Below, one piece after another: positions 887 to 20,133 of a DNA stretch of 20,133 bases. Location: IMG/VR virus record IMGVR_UViG_2778261637_000004; one strand, written 5' to 3'. Below the pieces are notes generated by a model. The model was not told the origin of the DNA and did not search any database. It saw only the letters and a list, made by a program, of their open reading frames with translations. The translations under genes and the position numbers were made by a program. Positions within the stretch are counted from its first letter, which is position 1, and each line of letters opens with the position of its first letter. This stretch comes from a virus (lineage: Duplodnaviria > Heunggongvirae > Uroviricota > Caudoviricetes).

Positions 887-1533
887 TTGTGAGTATCTCA
901 CGTTCTCACTGCGCTGGGCAAAAAAACATCGCAAAATCTGGAGCAGGCACGCAAAACAGAATTGAATGTTGCGGGGAGGAAAAATGCCGCTCTGTTTGAG
1001 TGGGCGGCATTTGTGAAGGCTGAAAAGGAAGAATTGGCGTTACGAGTTATTCTGTTGAATCTGTTTGTAGAGTATTGGCCTCAGTTCCGCATTGTAGCTG
1101 ATTTTTTTCTAATGCGTTTTTTGATTATGTACACCCTTATGTACACGTTTTTTTAAAGCGTTCAGCAATTACGCTGGTGGATGATCACGGATAACCTGAC
1201 ATCTACAGCCGCCTTAAAAAGCTGAACCCGACAAGCATTACTGCGTATCGGGTTCGTTCGCTCTTTCTACTCGTGGCAGATGAGTTTACGGTGTGATTTT
1301 ATCGGGCGAGGGTATTGTATCAGGCATCCCCTTTTCTATGCAGATTTGCATAGTTCCGAATGGTGGCGTTATGGAAGCCTCCCATATCAGCATCATGCCC
1401 ACCAGCGTGAAGTATTTTTTATTTCGCGGGTGTAAAAATTTGACGAGGCGGGCGGTCCCATAAGCAATGGGTTGTAGGGATTTCGATCCCCCCTCCTGAA
1501 TGCAATTTTTCGTATATATATATACAAAACAGT

Positions 1534-1688
1534 GCGGGTTATGCGGGTTACCGGGTTATCTTAGCGTGCTAACTATTTTTTATTCTTTAGTATCAATATG
1601 TTGTAAAATGCACTGTTCATTATTCAAGCATCGCATAACCCGCAAAACATCCCAAATAACCCGCAAACGCCCCAAAATAACCCGCAAA
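1534..1688. repeat. Iteron cluster A: three tandem GCGGGTTAY 9-mers, a ~75 bp AT-rich spacer, then three ATAACCCGCAAA copies at 20-22 bp spacing; putative origin or cis-replication region
   Basis: Tandem copies at 1534-1542, 1543-1551 and 1552-1559 (degenerate). AT-rich spacer 1561-1630. Inverted copies at 1635-1646, 1655-1666 and 1677-1688. No ORF covers the region. Confidence 0.6.
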
Positions 1689-2351
1689 CACATTGCTGAA
1701 AGCAGGGGTGGATAGTTCCACTGGTGCCACAGAACGGCTGAATACGGTAACTGTTGCTGGTGGTCTGTCCTGTTGTCGTTCCAGTCTCATCAAATTGAGA
1801 GGCAAGACAAAGTGCATTTTTGCACTATAGCCAAAGCCTCATAAAACATAGTTACCCCCACAGGTTGGCAAACCATTACCCAACGCAATTAAGTGCGTCA
1901 GAATCGATTACAGCGCGTTCCTGTGGCACGTTGTTGCCGTTCTCAACAGTGAAAGGAGAGCGTAAAAAGCGCATATCTATTACTGTTGAGGGGTGTAGCG
2001 GCATATATCGCGCATATCCACGCCGTTAATCCCGATACCGTCACTGCGCATTGAGATCAACCAGAAGATTAAGATAGTTTTACCTGAAATTATCCAAATA
2101 ATTGTTTTAACTGATTAATTTTTCGAATATCTATTGTTAGGGAATAAATCATCAGATACACCATAAAACGACATCTTTCAGGGTGTAGAAGATGCAAAGC
2201 CGGTACTGAAGAAAAGACAAAGAATATGAATGGCTGGACACACGATGGAAGGATTGTCCATTGAAGGATCAATCCCCATGGTATAAGTATTAATAAAACC
2301 GCGCAGCGGGCTTTTTTATCTGCGGTTTCCCGCCCGGGCGGCGGTGGCATT

Positions 2352-2379
2352 CGTTAAAAACAAGGCCGCGAAAGCGGCC
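2352..2379 (-). terminator. Rho-independent terminator closing the cargo operon
   Basis: GGCCGC-GAAA-GCGGCC hairpin (2364-2379) followed on the minus strand by TTGTTTTT, 10 nt after the stop of the 104-aa gene. Confidence 0.6.
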
Positions 2380-2388
2380 TGTGACATG

Positions 2389-12279: not shown

Positions 12280-14406
12280 TTAATCTTCTGCTTCAGGCTG
12301 GAACATCAGCACGTAAAAAATATGCTGCTTCCCGCCAATCCTGCCGAGCGCCTTTTTCTTGTAACGGCGGTCGCCTCCCGCTTCCAGCATTCCGGCAGCA
12401 CTCAACGCGCGGGCAAAGTGAGACGGATTAAATCCCTGTGCGATCTCCCCCTCAAACACATGCGGAAACGTGTAAAAACGGAACTCATCATCTTCATTTC
12501 TGATACTCCCCTTTCTGTATCCGGCAAGGTCTTTAATCGGTAAATCACGCTCATCGCTGTTTGGATAAGGAAGGTATCGACTGAACCCGAACGACGACAA
12601 AAACGCCTCAGCCTGTTCAACCATCTGTTTAAATTCCCTGTTGCCCGTGCCGAATTCCTTCACCCAGGCATTAAAGTTATGCTGAACTGCATCACGGCAC
12701 GCCTGAACATCCCAGCCTGTAACATGACCGGAAAGCACAAGCGCGGCCTCCAGTACGGCGAATCTTTCCCCCACGCGGTGAACCTGCTCGCCGTAGCTCT
12801 CCGGTATCAGGTTGCGCCACCGCTCGCGACATGCCCTTACCGCGTCCTTTGCCTCCTGCTGGTGGCCTGCCAGCCATTTAACCCACTCACGACCTGCCGC
12901 CCCGTGATTTTCTGTCCAGGCATCTTTTAACGCGTCTGCGTGCGCCTTTCCGGTGCTGTATTCGTGAAACTGCGAGGCCTTTTCCATCGGCACGTTAAGC
13001 AGACGGACAAGCTGCCCCGCTTTAATTTTTATCCCTTCCGTTTTGAGGAATGTTTCAACGTCCATTTCTCCGGTGCTGATTGCCACCGTGCGCCAGTGTT
13101 TTATCTCCCTGTTGCCGCCGTCCTTCGCCCCCTGTAATTTCCCGGAACCGTTAAACAGCGTATAGGCTGACGTGGACACCTCCCGCGCGTTTCCGGCCTG
13201 GCCTATTTCATCCAGGGGTAACAGCCCGTCATTATGTGCTTCGGCCTCGTTGGCGATACCTAACGCCGTTCCGTACCAGGTCAGCCGTTGCGCGTCCGGC
13301 TCTCCCCATAAACTTGATGCAATGTTCTGTGTGGTGGTTTTACCTGCTGATGATTGCTCAAAAAGATGAACCCCGAAGCCGTCAGCACCCACCAGCCCGA
13401 TTAATGGTGCGGATAGCGATACCGCCACACCCAGCATCATGGACGGATTACCACCAGCCAGCCGCGCCACGGTATCGCGCCAGCCCTCCGCTGTTCCCGC
13501 CACGGAATAGCCATTAACTGCGGCAGTTTTTCCGGTAAACAGGATGGGTTTCTCTGATTCACCAATGACCGAACCATCCGGCATGATGTACGCACCAAAA
13601 TGCCAGCCCGTTGTAGTGCTTAGCTGCCATTCCTCATGACTTCCGCTTAACTGCATCCAGTCAGCCAGGATGGCTCTGTATTTGCCGTTGGTCGTCACGT
13701 TAAGACCGTGGTCTTTCAGCAACCGCCAGCCGTCACGGTCACCAATGCCTCCGCACGGGACCGCCATTGTAATGACCTCATGGTTTGCTGGTTTTTTCCA
13801 GCGCATCACGCGGTAATGCTCTTTGCCGATTGTTCCTGTTCCCAGTAGTTCAAGCGGAGAACATAACCACGTCTCAGGCCGGATAATTTCGCCTGACTGC
13901 TTGTCCACTTTGGGCGTTACCCAGAAAACACCATCGACGCGACTTTCAACACGAGGCTTTAATTCGTCATCATAATTTCCGGTGAAATTTGTCTTTGCCG
14001 GAAGGTTGATCACCAGACTGTTACCGCGTTCCGCATCATCCTTCAGTCCAGCCATGCGCGGTGTCCAGTCCTCCGGCTGCTGGTCAACAAAGCTGCGGTA
14101 GCAACGCGCCTCCTTCACACCCGCCACTGCAAGCAGTGTCGCTATCTGTGTAAGGTGCTGCTCTGATATTTCACCAGCACGATAAACGCGCACGTAATAG
14201 CGCCCTTTGTCGATGATTTGCGTGTCTGCCAGACTCGCCAGTTGTTCCGGTCCAAGAATAACTGGATGTGTATCATCTGCCGCAATATGCTTTCCGGCCC
14301 ATTCGCTCCACTCTTTCGCATGTGCCCAGGCATCACTACCCGCAAAGATAATCACCTCCGTCATTTTGTCTTTCGGCTGGTGCTTTAAATTCGGTGCGCG
14401 TTTCAT
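12280..14406 (-). CDS. Replication initiator: primase/helicase-type protein with a P-loop NTPase domain
   Basis: 708 aa. Walker A-like LFEQSSAGKTTTQ and an acidic LLPLDEIG stretch (Walker B-like). ATGA start/stop overlap with the upstream 100-aa gene. Sits beside the iterons and ssb, as in P4-alpha-like and PICI replicons. Confidence 0.8.
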   Translation of the reverse strand: MKRAPNLKHQPKDKMTEVIIFAGSDAWAHAKEWSEWAGKHIAADDTHPVILGPEQLASLADTQIIDKGRYYVRVYRAGEISEQHLTQIATLLAVAGVKEARCYRSFVDQQPEDWTPRMAGLKDDAERGNSLVINLPAKTNFTGNYDDELKPRVESRVDGVFWVTPKVDKQSGEIIRPETWLCSPLELLGTGTIGKEHYRVMRWKKPANHEVITMAVPCGGIGDRDGWRLLKDHGLNVTTNGKYRAILADWMQLSGSHEEWQLSTTTGWHFGAYIMPDGSVIGESEKPILFTGKTAAVNGYSVAGTAEGWRDTVARLAGGNPSMMLGVAVSLSAPLIGLVGADGFGVHLFEQSSAGKTTTQNIASSLWGEPDAQRLTWYGTALGIANEAEAHNDGLLPLDEIGQAGNAREVSTSAYTLFNGSGKLQGAKDGGNREIKHWRTVAISTGEMDVETFLKTEGIKIKAGQLVRLLNVPMEKASQFHEYSTGKAHADALKDAWTENHGAAGREWVKWLAGHQQEAKDAVRACRERWRNLIPESYGEQVHRVGERFAVLEAALVLSGHVTGWDVQACRDAVQHNFNAWVKEFGTGNREFKQMVEQAEAFLSSFGFSRYLPYPNSDERDLPIKDLAGYRKGSIRNEDDEFRFYTFPHVFEGEIAQGFNPSHFARALSAAGMLEAGGDRRYKKKALGRIGGKQHIFYVLMFQPEAED

Positions 14407-14707: not shown

Positions 14708-14965
14708 TTATTTCCCGGTGTGGGGTTCTTCTTTATATTTATGGGCTAACAAATCTGGTAATTGCCTGTATTTATCCTCGGCAATATATTCAGAATAATC
14801 GACAGCACTGTTCAGTATATCTAACGCCGTTTCATGCTCCAGATTCGAAACTATAAGGAACGTTGCTACTTTTAGCATATTCGCGATATGCAAAAGAGCA
14901 TCAATTTCATTTTTTGGCGCTTCGCTGAATTTTTGCTCCAGAAGAATAAATCGTTCATCACGCAT
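14708..14965 (-). CDS. Hypothetical protein (85 aa)
   Basis: ATG at 14965 preceded by AGGAGGA; acidic, helical-looking sequence. Confidence 0.6.
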   Translation of the reverse strand: MRDERFILLEQKFSEAPKNEIDALLHIANMLKVATFLIVSNLEHETALDILNSAVDYSEYIAEDKYRQLPDLLAHKYKEEPHTGK

Positions 14966-15161
14966 AGTGTTCCTCCTGACGGATGCGGGCAGTAAATACC
15001 ATCACGCAGCCAGCCGGGGATTGCTGACGGGCTTCCTGTTCGCTGGTGGCCACGATGTGAATCACGCGCGGTTGTGCCGTACTCAGGGCGATAAAACGCC
15101 AGATGTATTTATTCAGGTTGTGCGAGTCCCGCCCTTGCGGGTGTGTGGTATGATTTCTCAT
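14958..15161 (-). CDS. Hypothetical small protein (67 aa), first gene of the leftward replication operon
   Basis: This is the C-terminal 67 codons of the 415-aa track ORF, starting at an ATG (15161) with GAGGT upstream; it overlaps the next gene by 8 nt. The rest of the 415-aa ORF conflicts with a well-supported plus-strand gene. Confidence 0.45.
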   Translation of the reverse strand: MRNHTTHPQGRDSHNLNKYIWRFIALSTAQPRVIHIVATSEQEARQQSPAGCVMVFTARIRQEEHYA

Positions 15162-15257
15162 AGCTACCTCGATACTTCTGCTATCGTTGGTGGTTAGAAG
15201 CCCGGTTAGTGTTAGCGCACTGCCGGGTTTCGTCGTTTCTGCACCTTGCATCAACAA

Positions 15258-15336
15258 GGTGTAAGTAACTTTATTTATAGGTGGCTTACATGTCAATGCT
15301 TTTATGTAAGACTTTTTATGTGTATATTGTCTTACA
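15258..15336. promoter_or_regulatory. Divergent promoter/operator region with nested inverted repeats
   Basis: GTGTAAG (15258-15264) pairs with CTTACAC (15330-15336), and CTTACAT (15284-15290) with ATGTAAG (15303-15309). TATATT -10-like element at 15322-15327. Lies between the leftward replication operon and the rightward RHH-like gene. Confidence 0.45.
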
Positions 15337-15357
15337 CTTTCGTTAAGAGGATTACAG

Positions 15358-15663
15358 ATGGCTACAGGTTCAAAAAACGCAAAATCACAATCGCTGACAG
15401 CTCGGATCCCGCATGATGTTATTGAAGGCATGGAATCCGTAAAACTGGACGGCGAAAGCAACGCCGGATTCATAGTAACCGCCATGCGTGGTGAGATCGC
15501 CCGCCGCCAGGCAGAAGGAAGCGGAGAAAATCCCCTCGTGTCTTCACTGGATGCCTTAGTTAAGGTCGAACAAATCGGCATCAAGGCAGCGGAGGAAATC
15601 GGGCAACTCGTAGCCGTCGCTCGTGAAGAACTCCAGCGCCGGGAGGCCAAAGAGCAGGAATAG
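15358..15663 (+). CDS. Small DNA-binding protein, ribbon-helix-helix-like (MobC/CopG-like); candidate island regulator
   Basis: ATG preceded by AAGAGGA. SLTARIPHDVIEGMESVKLDGESNAGFIVTAMRGEIARR is consistent with an RHH N-terminus followed by a helical C-terminal region. Confidence 0.6.
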   Translation: MATGSKNAKSQSLTARIPHDVIEGMESVKLDGESNAGFIVTAMRGEIARRQAEGSGENPLVSSLDALVKVEQIGIKAAEEIGQLVAVAREELQRREAKEQE

Positions 15664-15720
15664 CCACTATCAGCGCCATAGTTTGAGGAACGCAGGCGCA
15701 TTGCTTTACAGGGCAGCACC

Positions 15721-15900
15721 ATGAGCGACACAGAATCAACAAAAACACCATCACCAACTCGTAAGAGACGACGCAAAAATATAGCGCATGAACATGAATC
15801 AGAAAGATTCGCACCTTGTTCGTTTGCTCTTGAGAAATTCCTTAAAGAGCACAGGAAAAAGCTCTCGTTGCAAACCCTGGAACGAACCAAATCTGACTGA
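15721..15900 (+). CDS. Small basic protein (59 aa), not in the ORF track
   Basis: Hand translation gives MSDTESTKTPSPTRKRRRKNIAHEHESERFAPCSFALEKFLKEHRKKLSLQTLERTKSD. Followed by a plus-strand terminator; the ribosome-binding site is weak. Confidence 0.35.
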   Translation: MSDTESTKTPSPTRKRRRKNIAHEHESERFAPCSFALEKFLKEHRKKLSLQTLERTKSD

Positions 15901-15967
15901 TCACATTGCCCACCAGCTGCAAATCTGGCATTGTTGGCGATGCGTTTGATTTCCTTTGTTCCCACTG

Positions 15968-15995
15968 GCGACCTCTCCCGGTCGCCTTTGTTTTG
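15968..15995 (+). terminator. Rho-independent terminator for the rightward small operon
   Basis: GGCGACC-TCTCCC-GGTCGCC hairpin followed by TTTGTTTT. Confidence 0.6.
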
Positions 15996-16044
15996 CCAGT
16001 TATCCAGCAACGGGGCGCTTTTTCTTTCTGTAACGTTCGGATCG

Positions 16045-16602
16045 TTACACATTGTTTTCACCCTCCAGAAAATCAGGCTGATATTTACGCCATAGCGCCC
16101 GCTCTTCTCGTTCCAGTGCATCTTTTGCCTCTTTGCATTGCTGTAACCTGTAACCGCGTTTGCTGGCTTCCTGTTGATAGGCAGCCTGGCGTTTACTGAA
16201 ATCATTCAGCATGGCAAACGGAACACCATAACCCCCCGTTTTGCGGATTGAAGGGATAACCTCGCGGAATACCCAGTTACTGAAACGGTGCGCAAATGTG
16301 CCTGGTGTGGAAGCTTTACGGCTGCGGGCGATCAGTTTGTAGAAACCTGATTCAGAGACAACATTCCAGCTTCTGGCACCACCACGCTTACCGGAATGCC
16401 CCTCGGTTAAAGCTAGGGTCATTACCTCGTCGTTATCCAGAACTGAAACGGCATCAGTAACATTGCTGATTTCCAGCGCAGCACACACATCAGCGCCAAC
16501 AAACCACGGCTCGCCGTTGATACTCACTATGCGCACCTGAATGTCATCGAATTTAATGACAGAGATTTCAGTGCGCCCGGCATAAAAGACAGGTTTACGC
16601 AT
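16045..16602 (-). CDS. Bro-N domain protein (phage anti-repressor family)
   Basis: 185 aa. IQVRIVSINGEPWFVGADVCAALEISNVTDAV is a typical Bro-N core. 8-nt overlap with the upstream gene. Confidence 0.8.
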   Translation of the reverse strand: MRKPVFYAGRTEISVIKFDDIQVRIVSINGEPWFVGADVCAALEISNVTDAVSVLDNDEVMTLALTEGHSGKRGGARSWNVVSESGFYKLIARSRKASTPGTFAHRFSNWVFREVIPSIRKTGGYGVPFAMLNDFSKRQAAYQQEASKRGYRLQQCKEAKDALEREERALWRKYQPDFLEGENNV

Positions 16603-17419
16603 GGCTGCTCACCTCCATGTGGCGGGCTAACCAGCGTTGCGAAAGGCGAATTAATTCAGCTTTCCGCTGGTGGTAGTCCAGGCCTAACTCAATCAGCGTG
16701 ATATTGCTCTGCTCAAGGTAAGAAAGGTGCTCAAGCTGCAACACGCTCATGTGGTCGCGTGGTTCACCTGTGATGCCGTTCGCCTGCGCCCACTGTTTTG
16801 CAGTCATGCCACCCAGCACGATACGCGCCAGCATATTAGCTTCCGTAGTGTAGTGGTGCTGGAGCGTGTTTTTACCCAGTTCAGCCCGGTACGCCTCCAG
16901 CGCGGCACACATTGGCTTAAAGTAGCTGGCTACGGTGATACGGGCTTTCAGTTCCCGGCGTAACGCTGCGGAACGTACAGGCGCTACCTTGTGTAGCTCC
17001 TCCTCGCATTTGATGAAGTACTGACGAACGGCGCGGCCCTGTTCGGTGCGTTCGATCATTGCCAGTTCTTTCGCCATTCCGACACTTAACAGATAGTCTT
17101 TACCGGGTCTGCCAGAGTGCTTAATCTTGCTGTAAGCCTCGCCATTCGGGCTTTTCCCCAAATTTGGGGAAATTGTTTTATGGACTGAGTAATCGTACCC
17201 AATGGTGAAGTCATATTCAGAGATGCGATCAGTGATCCATGTAGAGAAGTCTTTTCCCACGCCCAACGCTTTGTGTAACGCTTTTGCGCTAACAACAGCG
17301 GCTTCACGCCCGCCAATAACGCCGGAAATAACCGGGATAATTTCGCCGAAATTTTGCAGATTCTGGTTTTCAGGCCGAACAAAGCCCTGCCCCTGTACGG
17401 GCGTTTTTCGCAGTTTCAT
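16595..17419 (-). CDS. Phage anti-repressor, AntA/KilA-N-like N-terminus with KilAC/ORF6C-like C-terminus
   Basis: 274 aa; the domain pattern (AKALHKALGVGKDFSTWITDRI...; ...EANMLARIVLGGMTAKQWAQANGI...) is recognised by eye only. Confidence 0.7.
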   Translation of the reverse strand: MKLRKTPVQGQGFVRPENQNLQNFGEIIPVISGVIGGREAAVVSAKALHKALGVGKDFSTWITDRISEYDFTIGYDYSVHKTISPNLGKSPNGEAYSKIKHSGRPGKDYLLSVGMAKELAMIERTEQGRAVRQYFIKCEEELHKVAPVRSAALRRELKARITVASYFKPMCAALEAYRAELGKNTLQHHYTTEANMLARIVLGGMTAKQWAQANGITGEPRDHMSVLQLEHLSYLEQSNITLIELGLDYHQRKAELIRLSQRWLARHMEVSSHA

Positions 17420-17496: not shown

Positions 17497-17703
17497 TCAG
17501 GCTGATGTGTTTCGGCGTTCTTCCAGCCAGCGATTAATCTCTACCGCATCAAACGCGGTAACATTACTGGTAAGTTTTATAGGCCGTGGTAACGTGCCAT
17601 TTTTCACCCAGCGATCGATTGTTGGCATAGAGACTCCCAGCAGTTCTGGCAAACGGTATCGGCGAATGTAGCCAGTAGTAGGAATGGTAGATTGTTCTGT
17701 CAT
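17497..17703 (-). CDS. alpA: AlpA-family transcriptional regulator / excisionase-like protein
   Basis: 68 aa with a winged-HTH core (YIRRYRLPELLGVSMPTIDRWVKNGTLPRPIKL); the usual integrase partner in P4-type and CP4-57-type islands. Confidence 0.8.
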   Translation of the reverse strand: MTEQSTIPTTGYIRRYRLPELLGVSMPTIDRWVKNGTLPRPIKLTSNVTAFDAVEINRWLEERRNTSA

Positions 17704-18771: not shown

Positions 18772-18864
18772 ATGCCACCTTTAAGCATTTCACCTTAAAA
18801 AATGAATGAGTCCAGCGGTAAGGTTTTCCGCTCTTCACCCCGTCGGGCTAGGCTCAATCTGTCC

Positions 18865-20133
18865 CTATGATAGCTTATGCATTTTCCTGATTGGCGTCAC
18901 GTTGTATTCTTCATTGCGTTCTAGCGCTACCAGCAGATCAGCCCACTGTGCCAGCGCAGCTTTACGCTCATCAAAATACTGATGGCGGTTATAAATCCCC
19001 TCCACACCCTTAATGCGATGATTGAGGCATCGTTCCGCTACGACAGGATCAACACCCAATGCTGCTAAATGAGTACGTGCGGTACGCCGGAAGTCGTGAA
19101 TCGTGAAATTAGGCACATCCGGCATTTCGGCGCGAACCTTAGCCAGTGCTACGGGTAAAGTGCTTTCCTGAATATGTGGGATCATTCTGTTTTGCATCTT
19201 CCTGGCTGGAAGCACCCATGCGCTATTACATGAAAAGGTGTGTAGCTCTCTCAACCATTCAACGGCAGGAGAAGGTAGAGGTATATCAATAGGGTCTCCG
19301 TTTTTGCTGCGTTCTTCCGGCAAATGCCATACCGCACCATCTAAATCAAACTCTTCCCATCGTGCGGCGCATAACTCCATCTTACGAACGCATAGTGCCA
19401 GCAATAGCTTAAATGTCAGTTCGTTCTGGCGGCTGAATCCTTTGGCTTTACGCATTGCCTGAAAAAATTGGATTAATTCGTCACGGTTCAGCCAGCGATC
19501 ACGAGATAATTCTTTCCCACCAGCATCTGATACTTCGAAAGCTGAGCAGGGATTTATCTCCAGAGCGTGGCGTTTTATCCCATAGTCAAAGATACGGCGT
19601 GTCCAGCGTAATACATCTGTTGCTATCGTTGGTGCTCCTCGGTCAACGATACCTTTCAACATGTCGTCAATGTGGCGTGGCTTAACGTCCTCTACCTTCA
19701 TATGCCCAATGCAGGGGTTAATATCCTTATCAATTCTCCGGCGAAGGATATCGGGATGTTTCCATCTCGGAAGTATCTGTCGCTCGAAGTATTCGGCGGC
19801 CAGATCTGAAACGCGCATGGCGTTTTTCTCAGCCTCCATTTTTGCCAGTGCTTCAGCTTTTCGTTCCTGTTTTTCTGCTGCTACGTCATAGCCAAGAGCA
19901 ACTCTGGCTGACAGCTCTTTTGCTGTTTCTCTGGCTTTTGATAGTGACAGTTCGGAGTAAGAGCCGATAACCATAGCCCGCTGTTTTCCTGCGAGCTTAT
20001 ATCGGAATCGCCAGAACGGGACTGTGTAGTTTTTGGGGTAGCAAATATAAAGGCCGTTGCCGTCTGCCTTGCCATCAAATCTGTCTCCCGCCTTTATCCA
20101 TGCGCGGATCTGCATATCTGTGAGTTTTGGCAT
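18865..20133 (-). CDS. Tyrosine recombinase, P4-type integrase with an N-terminal arm-binding (DUF4102-like) domain
   Basis: 422 aa. The N-terminus (LTDMQIRAWIK...DGNGLYICY...WRFRY) matches the P4-integrase arm domain. The C-terminus has HDFRRTARTHLAALG and a GIYNRHQY tyrosine region. The start codon is the final three bases of the window. Confidence 0.9.
   Translation of the reverse strand: MPKLTDMQIRAWIKAGDRFDGKADGNGLYICYPKNYTVPFWRFRYKLAGKQRAMVIGSYSELSLSKARETAKELSARVALGYDVAAEKQERKAEALAKMEAEKNAMRVSDLAAEYFERQILPRWKHPDILRRRIDKDINPCIGHMKVEDVKPRHIDDMLKGIVDRGAPTIATDVLRWTRRIFDYGIKRHALEINPCSAFEVSDAGGKELSRDRWLNRDELIQFFQAMRKAKGFSRQNELTFKLLLALCVRKMELCAARWEEFDLDGAVWHLPEERSKNGDPIDIPLPSPAVEWLRELHTFSCNSAWVLPARKMQNRMIPHIQESTLPVALAKVRAEMPDVPNFTIHDFRRTARTHLAALGVDPVVAERCLNHRIKGVEGIYNRHQYFDERKAALAQWADLLVALERNEEYNVTPIRKMHKLS

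What the first reader, a model, noticed from the sequence alone, without database searches (positions are those of the whole stretch)
14958..15357. Divergent control region with nested palindromes; the 415-aa track ORF is an artefact hiding a real 67-aa gene
The outer pair (GTGTAAG/CTTACAC) and inner pair (CTTACAT/ATGTAAG) of inverted repeats lie between a leftward operon and a rightward RHH-like gene (15358-15663, strong AAGAGGA Shine-Dalgarno). This resembles a cI/cro-style genetic switch. The 415-aa minus-strand ORF (14958-16205) overlaps the plus-strand gene and has Ser/Cys-rich low-complexity composition. Only its last 67 codons (ATG at 15161, GAGGT upstream) look like a gene.
Basis: seen in the sequence. 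Interest (0 to 1): 0.4.

Follow-up and report, generated by a model that had tools for sequence, protein, structure and literature searches.

The report
Satellite control region: repressor, antisense RNA, nested ORF
This is the on/off control region of a phage-satellite island: a small DNA-binding repressor with its binding sites, an unannotated antisense RNA that covers the start of a cell-killing gene, and a long reading frame that looks like junk but seems to be kept open so that ribosomes can read through the region.

Summary

- **67-aa gene:** real. It is a homologue of phage P4 Kil (the Icd-like family).
- **101-aa gene:** a YlcI/YnfO-family ribbon-helix-helix (RHH) protein.
- **"Nested palindromes":** four alternately oriented TGTAAG sites 22-23 bp apart. 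They overlap two back-to-back promoters. In relatives the site sequence co-varies with the protein's beta-strand residues.
about 80 nt on the plus strand (about 15160-15241). It covers the SD and AUG of the Kil-like gene, has an invariant extended -10 promoter and a terminator hairpin, and shows strong strand-specific covariation across six genera. It is SymR-like but scores below the Rfam threshold.
in 22 of 22 related loci the same antisense frame is stop-free from the upstream alpA/ant/bro gene to the Kil-like gene. The other frames carry 9-45 stops. An SD-ATG sits at its 5' end.

This matches P4's nested kil/eta genes, where eta translation prevents Rho termination. What differs from P4 is the immunity part: an RHH gene embedded antisense in the eta-like ORF, plus a cis-antisense RNA instead of CI RNA. 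I rate it a new variant of a known kind.

The parts
14958..15161 (-). Kil/Icd-like gene (67 aa). Its SD is GAGGT (plus-strand ACCTC at 15166-15170).
   Evidence: NF033153 phage_ICD_like, 69 bits against a cutoff of 25. P4 Kil hits the same model at 76 bits. PGAP names it 'host cell division inhibitor Icd-like protein' in relatives. 178 homologues were found.
14958..16052 (-). Eta-like long ORF, 364 codons from ATG 16052-16050 (415 codons from ATG 16205). Its SD is GGAGGG at 16066-16061, and its start region overlaps the Bro-N stop at 16045-16047. It runs antisense through the 59-aa ORF, the RHH gene, the operators and the sRNA, and ends as the Kil-like gene.
   Evidence: It has 0 stops, against 20 and 19 in the other two minus frames. 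The same antisense frame is open in 22 of 22 related loci. In the AT-rich intergenic part alone the counts are 0 against 43 and 40 stops over 13 loci. It has no Pfam family. The P4 precedent is the eta ORF at L024 8168-8812.
15159..15244 (+). Predicted cis-antisense small RNA of about 80 nt, with TSS near 15160-15162. Hairpin 1 (15161-15196) carries the anti-SD CCUC. Hairpin 2 (15197-15231) is the terminator stem, followed by a U-rich tail to about 15241. It is complementary to the SD and AUG of the Kil-like gene.
   Evidence: Folding energy is -37.2 kcal/mol, z -5.2. Rfam SymR scores 33.6 bits, E 1.5e-4, below the gathering score of 61. My own covariance model finds it in 23 loci, all but one (98197/L009) with a distinct sRNA sequence. 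96.5% of cells are paired and 10 pairs show changes on both sides; slid controls give 32-51%. Pairing is 96.5% on the plus strand against 82.3% on the minus strand, with 90 G.U cells against 1 A.C cell.
15144..15154 (+). Promoter of the antisense RNA: an extended -10, TGTGGTATGAT (TG at 15146-15147, TATGAT at 15149-15154). It lies inside codons 3-6 of the Kil-like gene.
   Evidence: It is invariant in E. coli, Edwardsiella and Pantoea loci. It reads TGGTATAAT in ATCC 43886 and TGATATGAT in Klebsiella. The DNA stays conserved where the Kil-like protein is only 43-51% identical.
15259..15337 (.). Four operator sites: O1 GTGTAAGTAAC 15259-15269, O2 GTGGCTTACAT 15281-15291, O3 ATGTAAGACTT 15304-15314, O4 TTGTCTTACAC 15327-15337. 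Orientation alternates and the centres are 22-23 bp apart.
   Evidence: Seen. Relatives have repeats at equivalent positions with different cores, and the cores track the RHH beta-strand residues. The same pairing of core and residues recurs across genera.
15268..15296 (-). Leftward promoter P_L, inside the eta-like ORF: -35 TTGACA (15296-15291), 17-bp spacer, -10 TAAAGT (15273-15268). The predicted TSS is near 15261. O2 abuts the -35; O1 covers the -10 edge and the TSS.
   Evidence: The consensus scan gives 10 of 12 matches. The -35 (plus-strand GTCAA) is conserved in relatives.
15300..15328 (+). Rightward promoter P_R for the RHH gene: -10 TATATT (15323-15328) with a weak -35 near 15300-15305. 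O3 lies in the spacer and O4 over the -10 edge and TSS, which implies autoregulation.
   Evidence: The -10 (TGTATATTG or TGCATACTG) is conserved at the same place in relatives. It was not reported by the strict scan, so it is an inferred promoter.
15358..15663 (+). RHH repressor gene (101 aa, YlcI/YnfO family). Its SD is AAGAGGA at 15345-15351. A C-terminal helix of about 42 aa is absent from the 59-aa forms.
15242..15261 (.). Conserved hairpin CACCTTG-N6-CAAGGTG, lying between the sRNA tail and O1 and at the 5' end of P_L transcripts.
   Evidence: (I11). Its role is unknown.
15721..15900 (+). Basic 59-aa ORF downstream of the RHH gene. A plus-strand terminator-like hairpin follows at 15967-15986.
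   Evidence: PGAP calls the equivalent ORF 'hypothetical protein' in relatives. It has no family hit.

Best explanation
The window is a P4-like or PICI-type phage-satellite island. The flagged region is its immunity and derepression region, built on the plan of phage P4's nested kil/eta genes but with different immunity parts.

**Quiescent state (inferred).** The RHH protein (YlcI/YnfO family, 15358-15663) is made from P_R. It binds the four TGTAAG operators. This shuts the internal leftward promoter P_L and limits its own synthesis. A constitutive antisense RNA of about 80 nt starts inside the first codons of the Kil-like gene. It pairs with the SD and AUG of any leftward transcript. The toxic Kil/Icd-like protein is then not translated, and the untranslated transcript is open to Rho-dependent termination before it reaches the replication genes (DUF4222, DUF927 primase-helicase).

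**Induced state (inferred by analogy with P4).** AlpA-activated transcription enters from upstream through alpA, antA and bro-N. Ribosomes pass from Bro-N into the long eta-like ORF at the SD-ATG that overlaps the Bro-N stop. They translate straight through the antisense RHH gene, the operators and the antisense-RNA target. No new initiation at the blocked SD is needed, so Rho cannot terminate and the replication operon is expressed. This convergent transcription should also interfere with P_R and with the sRNA promoter.

**What is shown here.** The gene identities; the RHH fold; the covariation of operator and protein; the RNA structure, its strand, promoter and terminator; and the conserved openness of the long frame with its SD-ATG.

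**What is inferred.** DNA binding, RNA expression, the translation block, the role of Rho, and the AlpA-driven override.
For: - **Kil homology:**
- **Island context:** int, the int-alpA RNA motif, AlpA, AntA, Bro-N, then the eta-like ORF/kil, an 85-aa gene, DUF4222 and DUF927. The ORFs from antA to DUF927 overlap or abut one another; antA itself begins 77 nt after the alpA stop.
- **Long frame:** stop-free in 22 of 22 loci from E. coli, E. ruysiae, Klebsiella, Yersinia, Photorhabdus, Edwardsiella and Pantoea. It is always in the same phase relative to the RHH gene. It is fused to kil in 17 loci; in the other 5 the stop lies within about 25 nt of the Kil-like start (just upstream of the SD in four, 10 nt past the sRNA 5' end in strain 10). 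Strong SD-ATG sites sit at the stop of the upstream gene, for example TAGGGGGAACATATG.
- **P4 precedent:** the eta ORF overlaps vis and ends as Kil. The published mechanism is summarised in PMC10111431, citing Forti et al. 1999.
- **Antisense RNA:**
- **RHH fold and operators:**
- **Possible Rho site:** the most C-rich, G-poor stretch of the leftward RNA is 15216-15139, with C/G 1.64. This is weak evidence.
Against: - There are no expression data of any kind. The sRNA, both promoters and translation of the long frame are predictions.
- P_R has a poor -35.
- The sRNA terminator tail is U-rich but interrupted (UUUCGUCGUUUCU).
- The eta-like ORF has no sequence similarity to P4 Eta: no Phage_ASH domain. 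The parallel therefore rests on layout and on the Kil homology alone.
- The related loci are not independent samples, so the significance of the open frame is overstated by simple multiplication.
- One rearranged locus (XJ6.1) has only 112 open codons.
- Foldseek against the PDB found nothing for the whole 101-aa model.
Confidence: 0.68

Rival explanations
1. This is a lambda-type cI/cro bistable switch, and the 415-aa ORF is a chance 'shadow' ORF on the strand opposite real genes, with no function.
For: The promoters are divergent, the repeats are inverted, and a small repressor gene is present. The long ORF's product is Ser/Cys/Arg-rich and has no family. It overlaps a well-supported gene on the other strand.
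Against: The first leftward gene is a Kil/Icd-like protein, not a regulator. The frame has 0 stops against 19-20 in the other frames here. It is open in 22 of 22 loci, including the 56-73% AT intergenic part, where the counts are 0 against 43 and 40 stops. SD-ATG sites are conserved at its 5' end. P4 has the same nested layout, with published function.
Confidence: 0.08
2. The long ORF encodes a protein whose sequence matters: an Eta-like protein with a Kil domain at its C-terminus. It is not just a stretch that has to be translated.
For: The frame is conserved and has a good SD-ATG. In 17 loci it is fused in frame to the Kil domain. P4 Eta is a recognised Pfam family, Phage_ASH, at 82 bits.
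Against: No family hit was found for this ORF or for three relatives. The non-overlapping N-terminal parts differ completely between loci. The length varies from 168 to 541 codons with whatever lies in the interval. In 5 loci the frame stops within about 25 nt of the Kil-like start rather than fusing to it, so the fusion is dispensable. The composition is what antisense translation typically gives.
Confidence: 0.12
3. The two conserved hairpins act in the sense (leftward) mRNA leader, for example as a processed immunity RNA like P4 CI or P1 C4, or as a leader attenuator. No antisense RNA is made.
For: P4 and P1 use sense-encoded immunity RNAs next to kil/icd. The minus-strand leader also folds better than shuffles, z -3.3. 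The XD35 relative carries C4 and isrK elements on that strand.
Against: The window has no C4, isrK or c4-a1b1 match even at E up to 10. Pairing is 96.5% on the plus strand but 82.3% on the minus strand, with 90 G.U cells against 1 A.C cell. The U-rich tail and the invariant extended -10 both lie on the plus strand. The plus strand folds better, z -5.2.
Confidence: 0.1
4. The antisense RNA and the Kil-like gene are simply a type I toxin-antitoxin addiction module that stabilises the island. They play no part in the induction circuit.
For: Kil and Icd proteins are toxic in P4 and P1 (established knowledge). The layout is that of SymE/SymR, and the RNA gives a sub-threshold SymR match in the window and three relatives. 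PMC1891008 describes SymR as a cis-encoded repressor of a toxic protein.
Against: The pair always sits at the head of the replication operon and inside the eta-like frame. It is always beside the RHH gene and operators. This fits regulation of the whole operon. The two roles are not exclusive.
Confidence: 0.25

Closest known systems
Phage P4 left-operon immunity region: nested kil/eta genes, CI RNA and the vis (alpA homologue) gene (Forti et al. 1999, J Bacteriol 181:5225; summarised in PMC10111431)
   Same: The small toxic gene is a homologue of P4 kil: the same NCBIfam family at 69 and 76 bits. It is the terminal part of a longer ORF. That ORF begins at the end of the upstream alpA-operon gene and contains an internal promoter. 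A primase gene lies downstream. In P4, translation of eta prevents Rho termination while immunity blocks kil translation.
   Different: There is no CI/C4 RNA and no seqA/isrK target (against for P4). The eta-like ORF has no Phage_ASH domain. A whole RHH repressor gene, its operators and a further small ORF lie antisense inside the eta-like ORF. The RNA regulator is cis-antisense, not sense-encoded. My covariance model finds no such RNA in P4.
SymE/SymR of E. coli (Rfam RF01809; PMC1891008)
   Same: A stable cis-antisense RNA of about 77-80 nt. Its promoter lies inside the target's coding region. It covers the SD and start codon of a toxic-protein gene. The architecture is two hairpins, with a sub-threshold covariance-model match of 30-35 bits in the window and three relatives.
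   Different: The scores are well below the gathering score of 61. The target is a Kil/Icd-like protein, not the AbrB-fold SymE. No LexA control is evident. Here the RNA sits inside a satellite's control region.
Phage P22 immI region (mnt, arc, ant and the sar antisense RNA)
   Same: An RHH repressor is transcribed divergently from an operon whose promoter it represses through operators that overlap the promoters. A short antisense RNA covers a ribosome-binding site in that operon. This comparison rests on my own knowledge and was not tested here.
   Different: No sequence relationship was tested. In P22 the regulated product is an antirepressor. Here the ant and bro genes lie upstream, and the regulated genes are kil and the replication genes. 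P22 has no nested long ORF.
Phage P1/P7 immI (c4 RNA, icd, ant)
   Same: An Icd-family gene whose translation is blocked by an RNA, with polarity on the downstream genes. One relative, XD35, carries C4 and isrK next to this module.
   Different: C4 is sense-encoded and acts on separate a'/b' target sites. The window has no C4 match.

Membership tests
P4-type nested kil/eta immunity region | The first translated gene downstream of the internal promoter is a Kil (Icd-like family) protein | tested here: met
   NF033153 at 69 bits for the 67-aa protein. P4 Kil (L024 8168-8365) scores 76 bits against the same model.
P4-type nested kil/eta immunity region | kil is the terminal part of a longer ORF that begins upstream of the internal promoter | tested here: met
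   The frame is open for 348 codons upstream of the kil ATG in the window, and is open in 22 of 22 related loci. The predicted P_L lies inside it.
P4-type nested kil/eta immunity region | The long ORF is translationally coupled to the preceding gene of the alpA (vis) operon | tested here: met
   At the sequence level only. GGAGGG, 8 nt, then ATG 16052-16050, overlapping the Bro-N stop at 16045-16047. Equivalent SD-ATG sites sit at the alpA, antA or bro stops in relatives.
P4-type nested kil/eta immunity region | The Eta N-terminal region belongs to Pfam Phage_ASH (PF10554) | tested here: not met
   P4 Eta scores 82 bits. The window's long ORF and three relatives give no hit.
P4-type nested kil/eta immunity region | A sense-encoded CI (C4-type) RNA and a seqA (isrK / c4-a1b1) target lie inside eta | tested here: not met
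   No match in the window at the gathering threshold or at E up to 10. Both are present in P4 and in XD35.
P4-type nested kil/eta immunity region | Translation of the long ORF prevents Rho-dependent termination; immunity blocks kil translation | not testable with these tools
   Needs nonsense mutants, a Rho inhibitor and transcript assays.
YlcI/YnfO family (NF041551) and the ribbon-helix-helix repressor class | Profile match above the curated cutoff | tested here: met
   72.1 bits against a cutoff of 30, residues 9-50.
YlcI/YnfO family (NF041551) and the ribbon-helix-helix repressor class | Strand-helix-helix fold of RHH proteins | tested here: met
YlcI/YnfO family (NF041551) and the ribbon-helix-helix repressor class | Sequence-specific binding to repeated operators at its own and a divergent promoter | tested here: inconclusive
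   Indirect evidence only. Ten different beta-strand variants go with ten repeat cores, and the same strand goes with the same core in different genera.
SymR (Rfam RF01809) | Covariance-model score at or above the gathering score (61 bits) | tested here: not met
   33.6 bits in the window; 30.3-34.8 bits in three relatives.
SymR (Rfam RF01809) | Cis-antisense to the SD and start codon of its target, with the promoter inside the target's coding region | tested here: met
   The RNA's 5' end lies at the CAT complement of the ATG, the anti-SD CCUC is in hairpin 1, and the extended -10 is at 15146-15154 inside codons 3-6.
SymR (Rfam RF01809) | The target is SymE (AbrB-fold toxin) | tested here: not met
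   The target is an Icd-like/Kil protein.
Lambda-type cI/cro switch | Two divergently transcribed DNA-binding regulators compete for shared operators | tested here: not met
   Only one regulator gene is present. The first leftward gene is Kil/Icd-like, and the next genes are an 85-aa protein without a family and a DUF4222 protein.

The most novel reading that the evidence does not exclude
YlcI/YnfO-family RHH proteins, together with this cis-antisense RNA, are the long-sought repressor system of Gram-negative PICI/P4-like satellites. The whole repressor module (gene, operators, sRNA) is embedded antisense inside a 'spacer' ORF. That ORF is kept open by selection only so that AlpA-driven translation can run over the module and override it. 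This would be a gene whose translation matters and whose product does not, overlapping a functional gene on the opposite strand over its full length.
Probability: 0.4. Interest if true: 0.78.

Novelty: new variant of a known kind. Interest (0 to 1): 0.6.

Why it matters
Fillol-Salom et al. [quoted passage not shown] AlpA is known only as an activator. This locus type includes the model island EcCICFT073 (L007). It offers a concrete, testable candidate: an RHH repressor with immunity-type operator specificity, plus an unannotated antisense RNA.

The locus also shows that P4's kil/eta logic, where translation works as an anti-termination device, extends to a large group of islands. DNA similar to the region was found in 1,472 of 5,426 complete E. 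coli genomes. Related loci occur in Klebsiella, Yersinia, Photorhabdus, Edwardsiella and Pantoea.

There is a practical side. Annotation pipelines disagree about this gene. It is called as 67 aa, as 97-134 aa, or as a pseudogene 'missing N-terminus'. They also miss the RNA.

Finally, the 0.3-1.6 kb frame is kept open across a functional antisense gene and an AT-rich promoter region. That is an unusually clear case of selection on openness rather than on a protein product.

Tried and rejected
- **Rfam at gathering thresholds:** found only the int-alpA motif, with no C4 or isrK. I had expected a P1/P4-type sense immunity RNA and dropped that idea.
- **DNA search of the phage collection:** found only a satellite-like record, over the Kil C-terminus. 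tblastn of the Kil-like protein did not reach P4. The homology showed only through the NCBIfam profile.
- **tblastn of the 101-aa protein against phages:** no match.
- **Scan of genome contigs with the Kil-like alignment:** gave only 3 loci. I gathered diversity instead from E. coli hits and from contigs that encode YlcI homologues.
- **PDB sequence search:** gave only a helix-hairpin-helix-like match for the C-terminal insertion.
- **Pfam on 37 family members:** only sub-threshold hits to the RHH-type PSK_trans_fac family.
- **hhalign to Mnt:** uninformative.
- **Literature searches:** for YlcI/YnfO, for Icd-like plus satellite, for PICI plus ribbon-helix-helix, and for the RNA sequence itself. 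None found a description of this module.
- **Forti 1999 (PMC94026):** not held in the library.
- **C/G skew as a Rho-site (rut) indicator:** gives only weak support.
Full report
**1. The observation**

- GTGTAAG 15259-15265 pairs with CTTACAC 15331-15337.
- CTTACAT 15285-15291 pairs with ATGTAAG 15304-15310.
- The plus-strand ORF runs 15358-15663, behind AAGAGGA at 15345-15351.
- The minus-strand ORF runs 14958-16205 (415 aa).
- An in-frame ATG sits at 15161, behind GAGGT.

TGTAAG is not enriched in the window as a whole: 8 copies against 8.8 expected. But four of the eight lie within 77 bp, alternate in orientation, and have centres 22-23 bp apart.

**2. Context**

The window is a P4-like or PICI-type integrative island. 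Read on the minus strand, it carries these features in order:
- integrase (18865-20133);
- the int-alpA RNA motif (18793-18858);
- a 318-aa ORF;
- AlpA (17497-17703);
- AntA (16595-17419);
- Bro-N (16045-16602);
- the flagged region;
- an 85-aa gene;
- DUF4222;
- a DUF927 primase-helicase (12280-14406).

From antA to DUF927 the ORFs overlap or abut one another. The best E. coli relative is 96.9% identical and lies next to a tRNA-Gly gene. DNA similar to the region occurs in 1,472 of 5,426 complete E. coli genomes.

**3. The two small genes**

The last 67 codons of the long ORF match NCBIfam phage_ICD_like at 69 bits against a cutoff of 25. P4 Kil is the last 65 codons of the P4 eta ORF, and it matches the same model at 76 bits. 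The 67-aa protein is therefore a Kil homologue.

The 101-aa protein matches YlcI_YnfO_N at 72 bits against a cutoff of 30.
- Its AlphaFold model (pLDDT 85.9) has an extended N-terminus, helices at 19-28 and 35-54, and a long C-terminal helix.
- Across 37 homologues the variable positions cluster at residues 11-16. In an RHH protein this is the strand that reads the DNA.
- The 42-residue C-terminal insertion is absent from the 59-aa forms. It resembles a helix-hairpin-helix motif.

**4. The repeats are operators**

I compared 20 or more related loci. Each variant has its own repeated 11-mer of the form GTG-N5-CAC. The repeats sit at the same three or four positions relative to conserved promoter elements.

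The repeat core tracks the beta-strand residues:

| Beta-strand residues | Repeat | Where found |
|---|---|---|
| SQSLTARI | TGTAAG core | this window and Klebsiella |
| SQSVTARI | GTGTAAGACAC | FELIX724 |
| SQTVAARV | GTGTTGAACAC | CI5 type and Edwardsiella |
| SQALKARV | GTGTGGCCCAC | CFT073 |
| SKKLEARV | GTGTCAGCCAC | RM12581 |
| SQMTTVRI | GTGTATTTCAC | AR0085 |
| SQQLNARF | GTG[C/A]ATCGCAC | CV261 |
| SQMTTIRV | GAGATATAC / GATATAC | Yersinia and E. coli 1218KP |
| SQLTTVRV | GTGTGTTTC | Photorhabdus |

A second RHH class (FRMRITPELK) goes with perfect palindromes, TGGTACGTACCA or AGGTGACCACCT.

In the window:
- O2 abuts the -35 of a leftward promoter, and O1 covers that promoter's -10 edge and TSS. 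The promoter is TTGACA 15296-15291, 17 bp, TAAAGT 15273-15268.
- O3 and O4 bracket the conserved rightward -10, TATATT 15323-15328.

**5. An unannotated antisense RNA**

A permissive Rfam scan gave a sub-threshold SymR match on the plus strand at 15162-15234: 33.6 bits, E 1.5e-4, against a gathering score of 61. Three relatives gave similar matches.

The plus strand from 15159 to 15246 folds into two hairpins at -37.2 kcal/mol, z -5.2. The minus-strand leader gives z -3.3.

Just upstream lies an extended -10, TGGTATGAT (15146-15154). This places the start at about 15160-15162, beside the complement of the Kil ATG.
- The element is invariant in E. coli, Edwardsiella and Pantoea. It reads TGGTATAAT in one strain and TGATATGAT in Klebsiella.
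- The DNA stays conserved even where the Kil-like protein is only 43-51% identical.

On 17 sequences, RNAalifold and pair counting gave 93.6% pairing against 35-57% for slid controls.

I built a covariance model from that alignment. It found the RNA in every non-P4 locus: Klebsiella at 60 bits, Photorhabdus 54, E. ruysiae 48, Yersinia 35. It found none in P4.

On 24 distinct sequences, with the caveat that this alignment was fitted to the model:
- 96.5% of cells pair;
- 10 pairs show changes on both sides;
- slid controls give 32-51%.

The structure belongs to the plus strand. Pairing is 96.5% there against 82.3% for the reverse complement, with 90 G.U cells against 1 A.C cell. A U-rich tail follows hairpin 2 on the plus strand in all variants. 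Hairpin 1 always carries the anti-SD CCUC, in either the stem or the loop.

So the prediction is a cis-antisense RNA of about 80 nt that covers the SD and AUG of the Kil-like gene. I found no description of it in the paper library.

**6. The long ORF is not a chance artefact**

Upstream of the Kil ATG, the frame stays open for 348 codons here. In E. coli relatives it stays open for 168-541 codons. The other two minus frames carry 9-45 stops over the same interval.

A single antisense frame spans the control region in all 22 loci examined:
- it is always in the same phase relative to the RHH gene;
- its length is 112-607 codons, and at least 235 in 21 of the 22 loci;
- the other frames reach at most 44 codons at the same point.

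In the AT-rich operator region alone (56-73% AT), 13 loci give 0 stops in this frame. The other two frames give 43 and 40.

The frame always begins at or inside the 3' end of the next upstream minus-strand gene (alpA, antA or bro-N). A good SD-ATG sits there:
- window: GGAGGGtgaaaacaATG, with the ATG at 16052-16050, overlapping the Bro-N stop;
- RM12581 and CV261: TAGGGGGAACATATG;
- ATCC 43886: TAAGGGGGAGTTATG.

In 17 loci the frame is fused to kil. In Klebsiella, Yersinia, Photorhabdus and E. hoshinae it stops 13-23 nt from the RNA's 5' end, just upstream of the kil SD. In strain 10 it stops 10 nt past that end, close to the start codon. This spacing suits termination followed by reinitiation.

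The peptide itself is unconserved, has no family, and is Ser/Cys/Arg-rich.

**7. What is known**

This is the plan of phage P4's left operon. P4 eta (L024 8168-8812) overlaps the end of vis, which is an AlpA homologue. It contains the internal promoter and the CI/seqA RNA elements, and it ends as Kil.

PMC10111431 summarises Forti et al. 1999 as follows:
- Kil is translated from the internal-promoter transcript and is under immunity control.
- Full-length Eta is translated only from the upstream late promoter.
[quoted passage not shown] The window differs from P4 in four ways:
- it has no C4, isrK or c4-a1b1 elements;
- it has no Phage_ASH domain;
- an RHH gene with operators lies antisense inside the eta-like ORF;
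- its RNA regulator is cis-antisense.

One relative, XD35, carries both kinds of module in one 456-codon frame. This shows that the modules can be exchanged.

**8. Model and verdict**

*Quiescent state.* The RHH repressor shuts P_L and limits its own promoter. The antisense RNA blocks Kil translation, which exposes any leftward transcript to polarity.

*Induced state.* AlpA-driven transcripts are translated continuously from bro-N into the eta-like frame. Ribosomes run across the repressor gene, the operators and the RNA target. This bypasses the blocked initiation site and protects the transcript through to the primase genes.

The anatomy and the comparative signals are shown here. DNA binding, RNA expression, the role of Rho and the override are inferred.

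The 67-aa gene and the RHH repressor are right. 'cI/cro-like' and 'artefact' are not.

I rate this a new variant of a known kind. It bears on the open question of whether Gram-negative PICIs have a repressor (PMC6092414).

Noticed in passing
window 18793-18858 (-): A match to the Rfam int-alpA RNA motif (RF02996): 42.5 bits against a gathering score of 35.8. It lies between the integrase gene and the 318-aa ORF upstream of alpA.
   Followed up: no
L010 (E. coli XD35) 1015-2385 (-): A hybrid locus. The SymR-like antisense RNA and a Kil N-terminal fragment are followed on the minus strand by isrK (75 bits), c4-a1b1 and C4 (82 bits), and then by a second Icd-like gene. All of this lies in one 456-codon open frame. 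PGAP calls part of it an 'ash family protein' pseudogene.
   Followed up: partly
L024 (phage P4) 8168-8812 (-); Pfam PF10554: Pfam Phage_ASH matches residues 37-161 of P4 Eta, which is the stretch that encodes the CI RNA and seqA elements. The family's conservation may owe as much to the embedded RNAs as to any protein function.
   Followed up: partly
L005 2430-2515 (+) and L017 2222-2305 (+): Orphan second copies of the antisense-RNA element (55-59 bits), away from any Kil-like gene. In L017 the copy precedes a second YlcI/YnfO gene (2418-2597). This suggests tandem or decayed immunity modules.
   Followed up: no
window 15358-15663, residues about 55-96 of the 101-aa protein: The 42-aa segment that separates the 101-aa from the 59-aa YlcI/YnfO forms resembles the helix-hairpin-helix region of the Hef nuclease (PDB 1x2i, E 0.007). 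It is modelled as one long helix.
   Followed up: partly
window 14958-15209 and equivalents in L001, L008, L012, L013, L018: PGAP annotates the same Kil-like gene inconsistently. It appears as 67-68 aa, as 105-134 aa with N-terminal extensions through the leader, or as a pseudogene 'missing N-terminus'. Protein databases hold forms of 52-118 aa.
   Followed up: yes
window 15242-15261: A conserved hairpin, CACCTTG-N6-CAAGGTG, between the sRNA tail and operator O1. It would sit at the very 5' end of P_L transcripts. The stem sequence is conserved and the loop varies. Its role is unknown.
   Followed up: no
L004 (Pantoea), L012 (E. coli MLI106K4), L015 (XJ6.1): A second, unrelated-looking RHH protein (N-terminal ...FRMRITPELK... 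or ...KKNIRFEDTLL...) occupies the same position. Its start codon lies directly after a perfect 12-bp palindrome that is present twice (AGGTGACCACCT or TGGTACGTACCA). PGAP still names the MLI106K4 copy YlcI/YnfO.
   Followed up: partly
window 15721-15900 (+): A basic 59-aa ORF (KRRRK motif) downstream of the RHH gene. PGAP annotates it as hypothetical in relatives, and it has no family hit. A plus-strand terminator-like hairpin follows at 15967-15986.
   Followed up: no
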